DNA of 64,000 nt from Escherichia coli (GTDB lineage: Bacteria > Pseudomonadota > Gammaproteobacteria > Enterobacterales > Enterobacteriaceae), in the NCBI RefSeq assembly GCF_051903065.1, contig NZ_CP178438.1. One strand, 5' to 3'. The notes below the pieces were generated by a model. It searched no databases and was not told where the DNA came from. It worked only from the letters and a program-made list of their open reading frames with translations. The position numbers were made by a program, and so were the translations under genes. Positions 10,852 through 15,540 of the stretch are shown one piece after another (position 1 is the first letter of the stretch; the number at the start of each line of letters is the position of its first letter).

Positions 10852-12327
10852 ATGGCTAACTACTTCAATACACTGAATCTGCGCCAGCAGCTGGCACAGC
10901 TGGGCAAATGTCGCTTTATGGGCCGCGATGAATTCGCCGATGGCGCGAGCTACCTTCAGGGTAAAAAAGTAGTCATTGTCGGCTGTGGTGCACAAGGTCT
11001 GAACCAGGGCCTGAACATGCGTGATTCTGGTCTCGATATCTCCTACGCTCTGCGTAAAGAAGCGATTGCCGAGAAGCGCGCGTCCTGGCGTAAAGCGACC
11101 GAAAATGGTTTTAAAGTGGGTACTTACGAAGAACTGATCCCACAGGCGGATCTGGTGGTTAACCTGACGCCGGACAAGCAGCACTCTGATGTAGTGCGCA
11201 CCGTACAGCCACTGATGAAAGACGGCGCGGCGCTGGGTTACTCGCACGGTTTCAACATCGTCGAAGTGGGCGAGCAGATCCGTAAAGATATCACCGTAGT
11301 CATGGTTGCGCCGAAATGCCCTGGCACCGAAGTGCGTGAAGAGTACAAACGTGGATTCGGCGTACCGACGCTGATTGCCGTTCACCCGGAAAACGATCCG
11401 AAAGGCGAAGGTATGGCGATCGCTAAAGCATGGGCGGCAGCAACCGGTGGTCACCGTGCGGGCGTGCTGGAATCGTCCTTCGTTGCGGAAGTGAAATCTG
11501 ACCTGATGGGCGAGCAAACCATTCTGTGCGGTATGTTGCAGGCTGGCTCGCTGCTGTGCTTCGACAAGCTGGTGGAAGAAGGCACCGACCCGGCATACGC
11601 AGAAAAACTGATTCAGTTCGGCTGGGAAACCATCACCGAAGCGCTGAAACAGGGCGGCATCACCCTGATGATGGACCGTCTCTCTAACCCGGCGAAACTG
11701 CGTGCTTACGCGCTGTCTGAACAGCTGAAAGAGATCATGGCACCGCTGTTCCAGAAACATATGGATGACATCATCTCCGGCGAATTCTCTTCCGGTATGA
11801 TGGCGGACTGGGCCAACGATGATAAGAAACTGCTGACCTGGCGTGAAGAAACCGGCAAAACCGCGTTTGAAACCGCGCCGCAGTATGAAGGCAAAATCGG
11901 CGAGCAGGAGTACTTCGATAAAGGCGTACTGATGATCGCGATGGTGAAAGCGGGCGTTGAACTGGCGTTCGAAACCATGGTCGATTCCGGCATCATTGAA
12001 GAGTCTGCATATTATGAATCACTGCACGAGCTGCCGCTGATTGCCAACACCATCGCCCGTAAGCGTCTGTACGAAATGAACGTGGTTATCTCTGATACCG
12101 CTGAGTACGGTAACTATCTGTTCTCTTACGCTTGTGTGCCGTTGCTGAAACCGTTTATGGCAGAGCTGCAACCGGGCGACCTGGGTAAAGCTATTCCGGA
12201 AGGCGCGGTAGATAACGCGCAACTGCGTGATGTGAACGAAGCGATTCGCAGCCATGCGATTGAGCAGGTAGGTAAGAAACTGCGCGGCTATATGACAGAT
12301 ATGAAACGCATTGCTGTTGCGGGTTAA
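10852..12327 (+). CDS. ilvC: ketol-acid reductoisomerase
   Basis: ORF 10630-12327; start trimmed to [23 protein letters not shown] (491 aa). Confidence 0.93.
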
Positions 12328-12343
12328 TAGCGATTCAGAGTTC

Positions 12344-12368
12344 AAGGCCTTCTCCTGGAGAAGGCCTT
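12344..12368. terminator. bidirectional terminator hairpin (ilvC / ppiC)
   Basis: perfect palindrome aaggccttctcctggagaaggcctt between convergent genes. Confidence 0.7.
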
Positions 12369-12372
12369 ACTG

Positions 12373-12678
<306 letters not shown>

Positions 12679-12852
12679 TCAGGCGGCGATTTTAGCATGA
12701 TCCGCAGATGCTAACGTAATTGTCAGTCAGGGAGGGGCTGGTACATATATGGCAAAAGCCCGGAAAATCCGGGCTTCGCAGGTCCCTCAAGGGGAGAAAA
12801 CTTAGGGCCTCTATGGGCTACAAAGTCATTATCGGGGATGGTGATTTTATTG

Positions 12853-13344
12853 TCAATTTATGAGCGATATGGCATTGATTGACTTGATGACCGCCCTCTG
12901 TATGTCTGCAACCAACTCATGTGGCAAACATTGATTAAGATACCCTCTGTAAGTTCTTGCTCTGTTTAATCTGTTTCGACTGACTTGTTGTACCAGGTCG
13001 GCTTTGGCCCAACGAATCTGCTGATCAAAGAATTGCAGGTCATTGATAACATTACTGGCTATTTCAACATGCATTCCACGTTTTAACTTGTCATGGTCGC
13101 GAGTGGTTGATAATGGAACGACAATACATGCGTTGCCATTAATTTTTCCGTTGAGCACGACAACTAACCTGTTTTTTATCATTTCAGGAGGAATGCGGCC
13201 ATCGTAATACGTCGTGCTGAACGGTCCATTTTGGCTAACAGGATAGTTACCAAAGTTGCATTTCAGTATTTCACCAACCTTAGGGCTGAAATTAATCGCC
13301 ACGAGTAAACCTCTCCTTAGTAAACTCTGAAAAAGTAATAACAC
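12853..13344 (-). CDS. PemK/MazF-like toxin-fold protein (yifN-like); start uncertain
   Basis: 163-aa ORF with PemK-like segments (GEILKCNFG..., LVVVLNGK..., ACIVVPLSTT, C-terminal ...RNRLNRARTYRGYLNQCLPHELV...); no adjacent antitoxin ORF of 60 aa or more. Confidence 0.6.
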   Translation of the reverse strand: MLLLFQSLLRRGLLVAINFSPKVGEILKCNFGNYPVSQNGPFSTTYYDGRIPPEMIKNRLVVVLNGKINGNACIVVPLSTTRDHDKLKRGMHVEIASNVINDLQFFDQQIRWAKADLVQQVSRNRLNRARTYRGYLNQCLPHELVADIQRAVIKSINAISLIN

Positions 13345-13518
13345 AACGTTACGACCCGATATTTTCTAAGCCTAATGGATTCACGATGAACTCCGGTTTC
13401 GGTCTTCCCTCTCTGATTTAAACATCCGCAGCCAACCGGTTAGCGGCTTACACGCGGTCACATTCAAATGCGATTCTGCTACAATCCTCCCCCCGTTCGA
13501 AGATTGAGCAATACACCT

Positions 13519-15540
13519 ATGCGTCTAAACCCCGGCCAACAACAAGCTGTCGAATTCGTTACCGGCCCCTGCCTGGTGCTGGCGGGCGCGGGTTCCGGTA
13601 AAACTCGTGTTATCACCAATAAAATCGCCCATCTGATCCGCGGTTGCGGTTATCAGGCGCGGCACATTGCGGCGGTGACCTTTACTAATAAAGCAGCGCG
13701 CGAGATGAAAGAGCGTGTAGGGCAGACGCTGGGGCGCAAAGAGGCGCGTGGGCTGATGATCTCCACTTTCCATACGTTGGGGCTGGATATCATCAAACGC
13801 GAGTATGCGGCGCTTGGGATGAAAGCGAACTTCTCGTTGTTTGACGATACCGATCAGCTTGCTTTGCTTAAAGAGTTGACCGAGGGGCTGATTGAAGATG
13901 ACAAAGTTCTCCTGCAACAACTGATTTCGACCATCTCTAACTGGAAGAACGATCTCAAAACTCCGGCGCAGGCGGCGGCAGAGGCAAAGGGCGAGCGGGA
14001 TCGTATTTTTGCCCATTGTTATGGGCTGTATGATGCACACCTGAAAGCCTGTAACGTTCTCGACTTCGATGACCTGATTTTATTGCCGACGTTGCTGCTG
14101 CAACGCAATGAAGAAGTACGCGAACGCTGGCAGAACAAAATTCGCTACCTGCTGGTGGATGAGTATCAGGACACCAACACCAGCCAGTATGAACTGGTGA
14201 AACTGCTGGTGGGCAGCCGCGCGCGCTTTACCGTGGTGGGTGACGATGACCAGTCGATCTACTCCTGGCGCGGTGCACGTCCGCAAAACCTGGTGCTGCT
14301 GAGTCAGGATTTTCCGGCGCTGAAGGTGATTAAGCTTGAGCAGAACTATCGCTCTTCCGGGCGTATTCTGAAAGCGGCGAACATCCTGATCGCCAATAAC
14401 CCGCACGTCTTTGAAAAGCGTCTGTTCTCCGAACTGGGTTACGGCACAGAGCTAAAAGTTTTAAGCGCGAATAACGAAGAACATGAAGCCGAGCGCGTCA
14501 CTGGTGAACTGATTGCGCATCACTTCGTCAATAAAACGCAGTACAAAGATTACGCCATTCTTTATCGCGGCAACCATCAGTCGCGGGTATTTGAAAAATT
14601 CCTGATGCAAAACCGCATCCCGTACAAAATATCTGGTGGCACGTCGTTCTTCTCCCGTCCGGAAATCAAGGACTTGCTGGCTTATCTGCGCGTACTGACT
14701 AACCCGGATGATGACAGCGCGTTTTTGCGGATCGTTAACACGCCGAAGCGAGAGATTGGCCCGGCGACGCTGAAAAAGTTGGGTGAATGGGCGATGACGC
14801 GCAATAAAAGCATGTTTACCGCCAGCTTTGATATGGGATTGAGTCAGACGCTTAGCGGACGTGGTTATGAGGCGTTGACCCGCTTTACTCACTGGCTGGC
14901 AGAAATCCAGCGTCTGGCGGAGCGGGAGCCGATTGCCGCGGTGCGCGATCTGATCCACGGCATGGATTATGAATCCTGGCTATACGAAACATCGCCCAGC
15001 CCGAAAGCTGCCGAAATGCGCATGAAGAACGTCAACCAACTGTTTAGCTGGATGACGGAGATGCTGGAAGGCAGCGAACTGGATGAGCCGATGACGCTCA
15101 CCCAGGTGGTGACGCGCTTTACTTTGCGCGACATGATGGAGCGCGGCGAGAGTGAGGAAGAGCTGGATCAGGTGCAACTGATGACTCTCCACGCGTCGAA
15201 AGGGCTGGAGTTTCCTTATGTCTACATGGTCGGTATGGAAGAAGGGTTTTTGCCGCACCAGAGCAGTATCGATGAAGATAATATCGATGAGGAGCGGCGG
15301 CTGGCCTATGTCGGCATTACCCGCGCCCAGAAGGAATTGACCTTTACGCTGTGTAAAGAACGCCGTCAGTACGGCGAACTGGTGCGCCCGGAGCCGAGCC
15401 GCTTTTTGCTGGAGCTGCCGCAGGATGATCTGATTTGGGAACAGGAGCGCAAAGTGGTCAGCGCCGAAGAACGGATGCAGAAAGGGCAAAGCCATCTGGC
15501 GAATCTGAAAGCGATGATGGCGGCAAAACGAGGGAAATAA
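13519..15540 (+). CDS. rep: ATP-dependent DNA helicase Rep
   Basis: ORF 13468-15540; start trimmed to [31 protein letters not shown] (673 aa). Confidence 0.93.

What the first reader, a model, noticed from the sequence alone, without database searches (positions are those of the whole stretch)
12853..13344. Solitary PemK/MazF-like toxin-fold gene without an evident antitoxin
The ORF between ppiC and rep has PemK/MazF-like sequence features but is longer than canonical toxins (about 110 aa) and has no ATG near the expected N-terminus (GEILKCNF...), so it may start at a non-ATG codon or be a degenerate relic. No antitoxin-sized ORF is visible upstream on the same strand. I recall yifN at this K-12 position being annotated as a PemK-family pseudogene.
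Basis: partly seen in the sequence, partly recalled or inferred. Interest (0 to 1): 0.4.

Follow-up and report, generated by a model that had tools for sequence, protein, structure and literature searches.

The report
MazF-like toxin with partner small RNA
The "lone" MazF-like toxin gene yifN is intact in this E. coli strain and sits next to a small RNA gene that accompanies it in many other bacteria, so the pair is probably a toxin–antitoxin module whose antitoxin is an RNA rather than a protein.

Summary
An ORF at 12853-13344 (-) matches Pfam PemK/MazF (E 7e-11). The real gene is 12853-13302: 149 aa, GTG start behind an AAGGAG ribosome-binding site, intact here. K-12 carries a 1-nt deletion.

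There is no protein antitoxin, but the gene is not solitary. Directly downstream on the same strand lies a near-consensus sigma-70 promoter whose -35 box contains the yifN stop codon. It should drive a ~70-nt RNA (12821 to ~12752) with two short hairpins and an intrinsic terminator.

- A covariance model finds this RNA in all 34 YifN loci (≥44% identity) from other species, although the neighbouring genes differ: beside the gene in 32, upstream and divergent in two. It also finds it beside plasmid copies.
- The RNA survives where the toxin gene has decayed.
- It is identical in 3995 of 4015 E. coli genomes that carry it.
- It matches no Rfam family. An RNA at this position was detected by northern blot in K-12 (Romero 2014).
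- It shows no special complementarity to yifN mRNA.

Best reading (confidence ~0.6): a MazF-fold endoribonuclease neutralised by a protein-binding RNA, like type III systems but with a different toxin family, gene order and RNA design. Toxicity and binding are untested.

The parts
12853..13302 (-). yifN coding sequence: 149 aa, GTG start, TGA stop. A MazF/PemK-fold protein with invariant Arg45 and Ser65.
   Evidence: PGAP CDS on identical DNA. Pfam PF02452 E 7e-11. AlphaFold2 model, mean pLDDT 75, with only MazF structures among the 50 best Foldseek hits listed, TM 0.62-0.79 normalised to the target. Homologue alignment A1 gives the invariant residues. Alignment to E. coli MazF R29/T52 and B. 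subtilis MazF T48.
13310..13318 (-). Shine-Dalgarno sequence AAGGAGAGG, 7-10 nt before the GTG start.
   Evidence: Read from the sequence. Initiating ribosomes were detected on yifN by Ribo-RET in laboratory strains (paper 10.1101/520783).
13303..13344 (-). Most likely 5' leader rather than coding sequence.
   Evidence: It overlaps the Shine-Dalgarno sequence and has no counterpart in any homologue.
12828..12856 (-). Promoter of the small RNA: TTGACA (12856..12851), 17 nt, GATAAT (12833..12828). The yifN stop codon TGA (12855..12853) lies inside the -35 box.
   Evidence: Promoter scan gives 11 of 12 matches. In 38 of 40 loci, a best-fit search returns a TTGnnn (one TTCACA) -35 box, a 16-18-nt spacer and a -10 box ending mostly 6-7 nt before the conserved RNA 5' end; 25 of 40 match at least 9 of 12.
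12747..12821 (-). Small-RNA gene. The transcript is predicted to run from G at 12821 to the U-tract near 12754. It is non-coding.
   Evidence: Covariance model R1 scores 83.7 bits, E about 6e-23, and this is the only strong hit in the 64-kb window. No Rfam 15 match. The sequence is 100% identical in 3995 of 4015 E. coli genomes and unannotated there. An sRNA 'downstream of yifN on the same strand' was detected by northern blot in K-12 (PMC4681348).
12807..12818 (-). Hairpin A, GCC-CAUAGA-GGC, followed by the conserved single-stranded CCUAAG at 12806..12801.
   Evidence: The stem is almost invariant in the YifN clade. In an Actinobacillus plasmid it is replaced by CGG-CAUAGA-CCG, present twice. 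Other G+C-rich stems followed by a CUYAAG-type motif were read by eye in about ten of the sixteen distant relatives.
12783..12795 (-). Hairpin B, UCCC-CUUGA-GGGA.
   Evidence: Three of its four pairs show changes on both sides that keep pairing. The competing long hairpin from single-sequence folding is not supported by the alignment.
12752..12780 (-). Intrinsic terminator of the small RNA, and presumably of yifN read-through transcripts: GCGAAGCCCGG-loop-CCGGGCUUUUGC.
   Evidence: Seven of the ten modelled pairs have compensatory changes and 97% of cells are paired.
12671..13502 (.). Accessory segment holding the whole module: sRNA, yifN, and the upstream regions used by ppiC and rep. About 26% of E. 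coli genomes lack it and have ppiC and rep 86 bp apart.
   Evidence: 4018 of 5426 genomes carry the locus. Empty sites in three UPEC-like genomes. Boundaries from aligning an empty site to the occupied site.
13093..13093 (-). Position of the 1-nt deletion that makes K-12 yifN a pseudogene. The base is present here.
   Evidence: Alignment of the window with ER2683. The exact K-12 60-mer occurs in 1224 genomes and the exact intact 61-mer in 362.

Best explanation
yifN and the small-RNA gene directly downstream form a two-part mobile module: a MazF-fold endoribonuclease toxin and an RNA antitoxin that acts on the protein.

Proposed mechanism:
1. YifN (149 aa) is made from a GTG start with a strong ribosome-binding site. 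No strong promoter was detected upstream of it.
2. A near-consensus sigma-70 promoter, whose -35 box contains the yifN stop codon, transcribes a ~70-nt RNA.
3. The RNA has two G+C-clamped mini-hairpins (loops CAUAGA and CUUGA), a conserved single-stranded CCUAAG, and an intrinsic terminator.
4. The RNA binds the YifN dimer as a decoy or pseudo-substrate, perhaps one hairpin unit per RNA-binding groove, and keeps the nuclease inactive.
5. If RNA synthesis stops or the module is lost, the RNA decays and free YifN cuts cellular RNA and arrests growth.

Shown here: the fold and catalytic residues (predicted), the promoter and terminator, the gene linkage, and the conservation. Shown in the literature: an RNA at this position is expressed in K-12. 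Inferred: toxicity, RNA-protein binding, neutralisation, and the relative stability of RNA and protein.
For: Toxin side:
- Pfam PemK match and MazF fold.
- Arg45 and Ser65 are invariant in 32 homologues and align with the MazF catalytic Arg/Thr.
- Purifying selection on intact alleles.
- Repeated decay: the K-12 frameshift in at least 1224 genomes and truncated or interrupted copies in L028, L034, L040, L046 and L048.

No protein partner:
- Neighbouring genes differ between genera.
- No upstream ORF is conserved outside closely related or syntenic loci.

RNA partner:
- All 34 YifN loci (≥44% identity) found through the protein in species-representative genomes have one strong RNA hit of 36-95 bits. 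In 32 it is directly downstream on the same strand. In L042 and L043 it is upstream and divergent.
- Plasmid copies have it too: an E. coli IncF/X plasmid and pCAR1.
- Empty-site E. coli genomes lack it.
- All five decayed toxin loci keep the RNA. No intact toxin was found without it.
- Relatives at 27-37% identity keep the same layout. In all 17 loci read, I see a TTGAnn -35 box in the last codons or stop codon; most also show a hairpin RNA and a terminator-like hairpin, all read by eye.
- Structure: 95% of cells are paired, 11 of 17 pairs have double changes, and 0 of 500 shuffles reach this.
- Within E. coli, the RNA has 0 variable columns out of 75. The yifN CDS has 32 of 450 and the flanking spacers have 10-11 each. 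It is identical in 3995 of 4015 genomes.
- An sRNA downstream of yifN on the same strand was detected by northern blot in K-12 (PMC4681348).

Mode of action: complementarity to yifN mRNA is no better for cognate than for non-cognate pairs. This argues against antisense control and, by elimination, for action on the protein.
Against: - There is no experimental evidence that YifN is toxic or a nuclease, or that the RNA binds or inhibits it.
- The catalytic-residue assignment rests on weak profile alignments (hhalign probabilities are low) plus the fold prediction.
- The AlphaFold2 model is of only moderate confidence (pLDDT 75), and the beta1-beta2 insertion is unmodelled.
- PADLOC has no model that matches.
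- Hairpin A shows almost no covariation inside the YifN clade. Its support comes from more distant relatives read by eye and with a crude script.
- The linkage would equally fit an RNA that is YifN's substrate or cofactor rather than its inhibitor.
- K-12 keeps and expresses the RNA without an intact toxin, so the RNA might have another role.
- The literature check covered open-access papers and bioRxiv only.
Confidence: 0.6

Rival explanations
1. The pair is a dedicated ribonucleoprotein or processing unit, not a toxin-antitoxin system. YifN would be a non-toxic, specific RNase or RNA-binding protein that matures, stabilises or uses the small RNA, and the RNA (or the complex) would act on other targets.
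For: The same strict linkage fits this reading. The RNA is extremely conserved in E. coli and is still expressed in K-12, where YifN is truncated. Copies without YifN exist on small replicons, which suggests the RNA can matter on its own.
Against: - The conserved MazF catalytic residues are typical of addiction or defence toxins.
- So is the patchy mobile distribution, which includes 6-7-kb plasmids.
- So is presence/absence polymorphism.
- So is repeated loss of the protein gene while the RNA is kept.
- No candidate RNA target is known.
Confidence: 0.2
2. Type I-like control: the small RNA base-pairs with yifN mRNA, for example its CUCCCC stretch with the ribosome-binding site, and blocks translation or triggers decay.
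For: In E. coli the RNA contains UCUCCCCUU, which could pair with the AAGGAGAGG Shine-Dalgarno sequence (by eye).
Against: - Duplex energies with the translation-initiation region average -24.7 kcal/mol for cognate and also for non-cognate pairs, and do not differ from shuffled RNAs.
- The longest perfect complement to the whole mRNA is 7.05 nt for cognate against 7.07 nt for non-cognate pairs.
- The C-rich stretch is the 5' arm of hairpin B, and it is absent from the Pasteurellaceae version of the RNA.
- The two genes do not overlap.
Confidence: 0.05
3. Ordinary solitary toxin gene or decaying relic. The downstream element would be only yifN's terminator plus a chance or ppiC-related promoter.
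For: K-12 and several other lineages carry broken copies. In E. coli the promoter could in principle also feed ppiC.
Against: - The allele here is intact and under purifying selection.
- Promoter, hairpins and terminator are conserved together in genera where the downstream gene differs or converges.
- The RNA body upstream of the terminator is conserved in sequence and pairing.
- The transcript was seen on a northern blot.
Confidence: 0.05
4. Classical type II system whose protein antitoxin is unrecognised: encoded elsewhere, or a very small unannotated ORF.
For: One distant relative (L047, 32% identity) has an XRE-type HTH gene directly upstream. L042 and L043 have an HTH_36/DnaD_N-like gene upstream. 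Myxococcus MazF-mx is a precedent for a solitary MazF controlled by an unlinked protein (mentioned in PMC2701414).
Against: No ORF of 20 aa or more within 400 nt upstream is shared across genera, apart from closely related or syntenic loci. Neighbours differ. The module moves between replicons as toxin plus RNA only. The L042/L043 ORF looks like a replication protein, and both loci still carry the RNA.
Confidence: 0.05

Closest known systems
MazEF / PemIK (Kis-Kid) type II toxin-antitoxin systems
   Same: The toxin has the same fold and Pfam family (PF02452) and equivalent catalytic Arg and Thr/Ser positions. It is found on chromosomes and plasmids.
   Different: There is no MazE/PemI-type protein antitoxin gene. 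The toxin is about 40 residues longer, with a 20-residue beta1-beta2 insertion. The conserved partner is an RNA gene downstream with its own promoter.
Type III toxin-antitoxin systems (ToxIN, CptIN, TenpIN)
   Same: A protein endoribonuclease is paired with an adjacent non-coding RNA built from repeated units and ending at an intrinsic terminator. The modules are mobile, on plasmids and chromosomes. From my own knowledge, ToxN is structurally related to Kid/MazF.
   Different: - The toxin is PF02452, not the ToxN/AbiQ family.
- The RNA is downstream, not upstream.
- The RNA has its own consensus promoter embedded in the toxin's stop codon.
- The RNA is two or three mini-hairpins (~70 nt), not 2-5 tandem 34-36-nt pseudoknot repeats.
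- PADLOC models do not match.
- Processing of the RNA by the toxin is unknown.
Solitary MazF-mx of Myxococcus xanthus
   Same: A MazF-family gene with no adjacent protein antitoxin (cited in PMC2701414).
   Different: From my own knowledge, that toxin is held by an unlinked transcription factor (MrpC). Here a linked RNA gene is co-inherited with the toxin.
pemK RNA motif of Firmicutes (recalled from memory, Weinberg et al.)
   Same: A conserved RNA structure associated with PemK/MazF genes.
   Different: That motif lies in the 5' UTR and is thought to be cis-regulatory. The element here is a separately promoted RNA 3' of the gene in Proteobacteria. No Rfam family matched in 21 loci.

Membership tests
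PemK/MazF toxin family (Pfam PF02452) | Sequence match to the family HMM above the curated threshold | tested here: met
   42.7 bits against a cut-off of 23.1, E 7e-11, residues 52-155 of the 163-aa ORF. NCBIfam has no specific model.
PemK/MazF toxin family (Pfam PF02452) | MazF/Kid SH3-like barrel fold with a C-terminal helix | tested here: met
   AlphaFold2 model with pLDDT 75 and pTM 0.70. The 50 best Foldseek PDB hits listed are all MazF-type toxins, E about 1e-5 to 8e-4, TM 0.62-0.79 normalised to the target. This is a prediction, not a solved structure.
PemK/MazF toxin family (Pfam PF02452) | Catalytic Arg and Thr/Ser (E. coli MazF R29/T52; B. subtilis MazF R25/T48) | tested here: met
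   R45 and S65 are invariant in 32 homologues and fall on R29/T52 and T48 in profile alignments. The alignment statistics are weak.
PemK/MazF toxin family (Pfam PF02452) | Sequence-specific endoribonuclease activity and growth inhibition | not testable with these tools
   No experiment on YifN was found in the searched literature.
Type II toxin-antitoxin system | Adjacent, co-transcribed protein antitoxin gene (RHH, AbrB or HTH) | tested here: not met
   No suitable ORF in 13303..13518 or 12655..12852. No upstream ORF is conserved outside closely related or syntenic loci. Neighbours are variable.
Type III toxin-antitoxin system | Non-coding RNA gene adjacent to, and co-conserved with, a protein toxin gene | tested here: met
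   34 of 34 genome loci plus the two plasmid loci checked (L198, pCAR1) carry the RNA. It is absent from empty sites.
Type III toxin-antitoxin system | Antitoxin consists of tandem direct repeats located upstream of the toxin, separated from it by a terminator, all under one promoter | tested here: not met
   The RNA is downstream and has its own promoter. It has two (rarely three) short hairpin units. A clean 2x direct repeat is seen only in the Actinobacillus plasmid.
Type III toxin-antitoxin system | Toxin of the ToxN/AbiQ, CptN or TenpN families | tested here: not met
   Pfam reports PF02452 only. No PADLOC model matches.
Type III toxin-antitoxin system | RNA binds and inhibits the toxin protein; toxin processes the RNA | not testable with these tools
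   Inferred only, by exclusion of antisense pairing.
Type I toxin-antitoxin system | Antisense RNA complementary to the toxin mRNA | tested here: not met
   Cognate equals non-cognate in duplex energy and in longest complementary stretch. The genes do not overlap.
Any described RNA family (Rfam 15) | Covariance-model match | tested here: not met
   No hit at E up to 1 in window 12300-13600. No gathering-score hit over the element in 20 related loci.

The most novel reading that the evidence does not exclude
YifN-like proteins and their downstream hairpin RNAs are a previously unrecognised, widespread class of toxin-antitoxin modules. Its features would be:
- a MazF-family nuclease held in check by a small protein-binding RNA;
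- an RNA promoter built into the toxin's stop codon;
- a range from E. coli chromosomes and conjugative plasmids to small Pasteurellaceae plasmids and alphaproteobacteria.

It may act in plasmid addiction or abortive phage defence. The YifN-less RNA copies on small phage-like replicons could then be counter-defence decoys.
Probability: 0.5. Interest if true: 0.85.

Novelty: new variant of a known kind. Interest (0 to 1): 0.72.

Why it matters
MazF is the textbook type II toxin, and E. coli is the organism where toxin-antitoxin systems are best catalogued. Even so, RefSeq labels this gene a "type II toxin" with no antitoxin, and its partner RNA is unannotated in about 4000 complete genomes.

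If the RNA is the antitoxin, three things follow:
- The MazF/PemK fold would join ToxN-type toxins in being controlled by RNA, which blurs the type II / type III boundary.
- It would explain how "orphan" PemK genes are tolerated.
- It would give a function to an sRNA already seen on a K-12 northern blot.

It would also supply a compact toxin-plus-70-nt-RNA cassette for plasmid stabilisation or RNA tools. The claim is directly testable with two plasmids and a growth curve.

Tried and rejected
- **Upstream protein antitoxin.** I listed all ORFs of 25 aa or more around the gene. I then compared all ORFs of 20 aa or more within 400 nt upstream in 21 loci. Only closely related or syntenic loci shared anything.
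- **Known RNA family.** Rfam at E up to 1 on the locus, and at gathering score on 20 related loci, gave nothing over the element.
- **Known defence system.** PADLOC gave no hit. PHROGs returned only an unknown-function family, phrog_15698.
- **Solved structure by sequence.** No PDB relative was found.
- **Antisense mechanism.** Rejected. Duplex energies and longest complementary runs are no better for cognate than for non-cognate pairs or shuffles.
- **Single long hairpin from minimum-free-energy folding of the E. coli RNA.** Rejected. On the alignment, 72% of cells are paired against 71% in shuffles, and 39 of 500 shuffles do as well. The two-mini-hairpin model gives 95% paired and 0 of 500.
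- **Metagenome scan with an 18-nt core pattern.** Most of the 120 hits are chance matches that lack the rest of the RNA. Where enough upstream sequence was available, the genuine copies shown had YifN upstream, except two small replicons (part of that output was cut).
- **UTAK-14 as an alternative occupant of the site.** The sequence is unique to that genome and does not explain the genomes that lack the locus. Those have a plain empty site.
- **Full census of intact versus broken alleles.** Only approximate, by exact 60/61-mers and a sample of 9 annotated loci.
- **Literature.** Searches for YifN, PemK or MazF with an RNA antitoxin, and for pCAR1, found no paper linking YifN to an RNA partner.
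Full report
**1. What is in the sequence**

The window is the E. coli ilvC-ppiC-yifN-rep region. It matches Pfam PemK_toxin (PF02452) at E 7e-11, 42.7 bits against a cut-off of 23.1.

A genome with identical DNA (NZ_CP083585) is annotated by PGAP with a shorter CDS, 12853..13302, 149 aa, named "type II toxin-antitoxin system PemK/MazF family toxin". Three things support that start:
- It is a GTG at 13302.
- It is preceded by AAGGAGAGG at 13318..13310.
- All homologues begin at the same residue, M-A/P-I-N-F-S-P-K-V-G.

The 14 extra codons of the mechanical ORF cover the ribosome-binding site and are not conserved.

**2. Intact here, broken in K-12, absent from a quarter of strains**

The K-12 derivative ER2683 is annotated as frameshifted. 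Alignment shows one missing base at window 13093, which truncates the protein soon after residue 69.

| Measure | Result |
|---|---|
| Complete E. coli genomes carrying the locus | 4018 of 5426 |
| Genomes with the exact K-12 60-mer across the deletion | 1224 |
| Genomes with the exact intact 61-mer | 362 |
| Sampled loci from other identity bands annotated as intact 149-aa genes | 8 of 8 |

The short-probe counts are lower bounds, because the probes tolerate no SNPs.

Genomes without the locus have ppiC and rep 86 bp apart. Aligning an empty site with the window shows that 12671..13502 (832 bp) replaces 54 bp. The locus is therefore a small accessory segment.

Intact alleles evolve under purifying selection. 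pN/pS is about 0.12-0.13 against Superficieibacter. It is 0.06-0.24 for six of the eight comparisons within E. coli; the two closest alleles, with only 1-2 synonymous differences, give 0.41 and 0.82. "Degenerate relic" does not describe this allele.

**3. The protein**

- Homologues of about 150 aa occur in Enterobacterales, Pseudomonas, Aeromonas and Burkholderiales. JGI names them "YifN (PemK superfamily)".
- A profile search of 1.84 billion cluster representatives finds 30 at E up to 1e-30, 133 at 1e-10 and 514 at 1e-3. The family is real but modest in size.
- An AlphaFold2 model (pLDDT 75) has the MazF barrel plus a C-terminal helix.
- The 50 best Foldseek PDB hits listed are all MazF-type toxins.
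- Nineteen residues are invariant in 32 homologues. Among them, R45 and S65 align with the catalytic R29/T52 of E. coli MazF and T48 of B. subtilis MazF. The alignment statistics are weak, so this is supportive rather than proof.
- The extra length comes mainly from a roughly 20-residue, poorly modelled insertion in the beta1-beta2 loop and an insertion after S65.
- There is no PADLOC hit. PHROGs has an unknown-function family, phrog_15698.

**4. No protein antitoxin**

The genes around YifN homologues differ completely between genera. Among 107 ORFs of 20 aa or more within 400 nt upstream in 21 loci, the only cross-genus similarities come from closely related or syntenic loci.

**5. The conserved partner is an RNA gene downstream**

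I printed the 260 nt after the stop codon of each homologue. In nearly every locus that showed the same element: a TTGACA-type -35 box at or just after the stop codon, a -10 box, and then a conserved sequence. In E. coli that sequence reads GUAGCCCAUAGAGGCCCUAAG...CCCCUUGAGGGACCUGCGAAGCCCGG-loop-CCGGGCUUUUGCC.

In the window:
- The promoter is TTGACA (12856..12851), 17 nt, GATAAT (12833..12828), 11 of 12 matches.
- The yifN stop codon TGA (12855..12853) lies inside the -35 box.
- The RNA should start at G 12821 and end in the U-tract near 12754.

A covariance model built from 23 sequences gave the following:
- One hit in the 64-kb window, at 12747..12821 (-), 83.7 bits.
- One strong hit of 36-95 bits at the same relative position in 32 of the 34 YifN loci (≥44% identity) recovered through the protein from species-representative genomes.
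- In the other two loci (Massilia L042 and Herbaspirillum L043), the RNA lies upstream and divergent. L043 has two copies.
- The E. coli IncF/X plasmid paralogue and Pseudomonas plasmid pCAR1 have the RNA too.
- The empty-site genome has none.

A best-fit promoter search, restricted to sites ending 3-10 nt before the RNA's conserved 5' end, returned a TTGnnn (one TTCACA) -35 box with a 16-18-nt spacer in 38 of 40 loci. The -10 box mostly ends 6-7 nt before the RNA 5' end, and 25 of 40 loci match at least 9 of 12 positions.

In several genera the next gene is convergent. The element is therefore not a leader for a downstream gene.

**6. RNA structure**

- The alignment supports two mini-hairpins plus the terminator: 95% of cells are paired, 11 of 17 pairs have changes on both sides, and 0 of 500 shuffles reach the observed values.
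- Hairpin B (UCCC-CUUGA-GGGA) has compensatory changes in three of its four pairs.
- Hairpin A (GCC-CAUAGA-GGC) is nearly invariant within the clade.
- In a 6.7-kb Actinobacillus plasmid, whose YifN is 37% identical, the RNA has two copies of UCGG-CAUAGA-CCG-CUUAAA. The loop is the same and the stem is swapped. A TTGAAT-17-TATAAT promoter lies across the stop codon.
- Relatives at 27-35% identity in alphaproteobacteria, Sutterella and a planctomycete keep a TTGAnn -35 box in the last codons or the stop codon. In about ten of those sixteen loci I can also read a G+C stem followed by a CUYAAG-type motif. Most end in a terminator-like hairpin. This last tier was read by eye and with a crude script.
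- The long hairpin predicted for the single E. coli sequence is not supported by the alignment.
- No Rfam 15 family matches in the window or in 20 related loci.

**7. Conservation and expression of the RNA**

| Region (10 E. coli alleles) | Variable columns |
|---|---|
| Small RNA | 0 of 75 |
| yifN CDS | 32 of 450 |
| ppiC-RNA spacer | 11 of 92 |
| yifN-rep spacer | 10 of 216 |

The 75-mer is 100% identical in 3995 of 4015 genomes and carries no annotation. The 871-bp locus, by contrast, is at least 99% identical in only 116 genomes.

Romero et al. [quoted passage not shown] Ribo-RET detected initiating ribosomes on yifN (10.1101/520783).

**8. What it most likely is**

Four lines point to a toxin-antitoxin-like module:
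- a MazF-fold protein with conserved catalytic residues;
- a patchy, mobile distribution: an accessory segment in E. coli, 118 plasmids including very small ones, and ICE- or plasmid-like contexts;
- repeated inactivation of the protein gene;
- a strictly co-inherited partner.

The asymmetry matters. All five species-level loci with a truncated or interrupted yifN (L028, L034, L040, L046, L048), and K-12, keep the RNA. No intact yifN was found without it. That is what is expected if the RNA is the antidote.

The RNA shows no preferential complementarity to its own yifN mRNA. The simplest mechanism is therefore direct binding of the protein, as in type III systems. The two hairpin units suggest one per groove of a MazF-like dimer. 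Fold, promoter, terminator, linkage and conservation are shown. Toxicity, binding, neutralisation and differential stability are inferred. I put this reading at about 0.6.

**9. Rivals**

- **A dedicated RNase or RNA-binding protein working with its own sRNA, without toxicity (~0.2).** This fits the linkage equally well. It also fits the RNA's persistence in K-12 and the RNA copies that lack YifN. It fits the mobile, decaying pattern less well.
- **Antisense control (~0.05).** Contradicted.
- **Relic plus terminator (~0.05).** Contradicted by intactness, selection and the conserved promoter and RNA body.
- **A hidden protein antitoxin (~0.05).** Has no conserved candidate.

**10. Comparison with known systems**

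- By HMM, fold and residues it is a member of the PemK/MazF protein family.
- It fails the defining feature of a type II system, a protein antitoxin.
- It resembles type III systems: a protein RNase with an adjacent RNA built from repeated units. It fails several of their defining features, namely the toxin family, the RNA being upstream under a shared promoter, and pseudoknot tandem repeats.

The best label is a new variant of RNA-antitoxin systems built on a MazF-family toxin.

Searches of open-access papers and bioRxiv found no paper that connects YifN, or any PemK/MazF toxin, with such an RNA partner. Subscription literature was not covered.

**11. Verdict**

The "solitary" interpretation is only partly right. 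It is a conserved, expressed and unannotated small-RNA gene whose promoter overlaps the toxin's stop codon.

Noticed in passing
L065 860-936 (-) and L066 7126-7202 (+), IMG/VR contigs: Good copies of the YifN-associated RNA (73 and 67 bits) sit on two small 'viral' contigs that encode a phrog_702 replication protein. No YifN homologue lies within 900 nt. These could be orphan antitoxins or counter-defence decoys.
   Followed up: partly
L043 1978-2060 (-) and 2135-2219 (-); L042 2132-2215 (-): In Herbaspirillum and Massilia the RNA lies upstream and divergent from the toxin; Herbaspirillum has two copies. Between RNA and toxin is an HTH_36/DnaD_N-like ORF of 176-191 aa, and YifN is extended to 214-227 aa.
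   Followed up: partly
window 12851-12856; L049-L063 last codons: The yifN stop codon TGA lies inside the -35 box TTGACA of the RNA promoter. In most alphaproteobacterial relatives the -35 TTGAC(A/G) is instead read as Leu-Thr within the last few codons, so the promoter constrains the protein's C-terminus.
   Followed up: partly
L003 4043-8042 (E. coli UTAK-14, NZ_CP168998): Directly after ppiC there are more than 4 kb of ORF-poor, unannotated sequence. The first ~865 bp were searched and match no other of the 5426 genomes. This may be an assembly artefact or a foreign insertion.
   Followed up: partly
window ~12774-12777: An MG1655 line evolved for 1000 generations in simulated microgravity carries a point mutation 78 nt downstream of yifN (PMC5460176). 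That maps into the small RNA's terminator-stem region. The reported base (C to T) did not match the base I read at 12775, so the exact position is unresolved.
   Followed up: partly
L193 and L194, equivalent to window 12655-12746: Some E. coli lineages lack 47 nt of the spacer between the small RNA and ppiC, while the RNA itself is unchanged.
   Followed up: no
window 13261-13263 (codon 14 of yifN): This strain has Lys14 (GEILKCNF). The other E. coli alleles and most homologues have Glu at this well-conserved position.
   Followed up: no
L198 682-766, 1319-1406 and 3179-3278 (E. coli IncF/X plasmid): The plasmid-borne yifN paralogue with its RNA lies near two AgrB-like antisense RNAs and an RNAI. 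This looks like a cluster of RNA-based maintenance elements.
   Followed up: no
window 12781-12790: GAGGGACC after hairpin B (GAGGAACC or GAGGACU in other species) loosely resembles the 23S rRNA sarcin-ricin loop core GAGAGGACC. This is by eye only and the motif is short, so it may be chance.
   Followed up: no
PQ189306.1, PQ189291.1 and PQ189315.1 (Vibrio phage-like elements of 13-15 kb): Distant YifN-like ORFs (27% identity) annotated as hypothetical proteins lie at the ends of three small Vibrio cyclitrophicus elements. I did not check them for an accompanying RNA.
   Followed up: no
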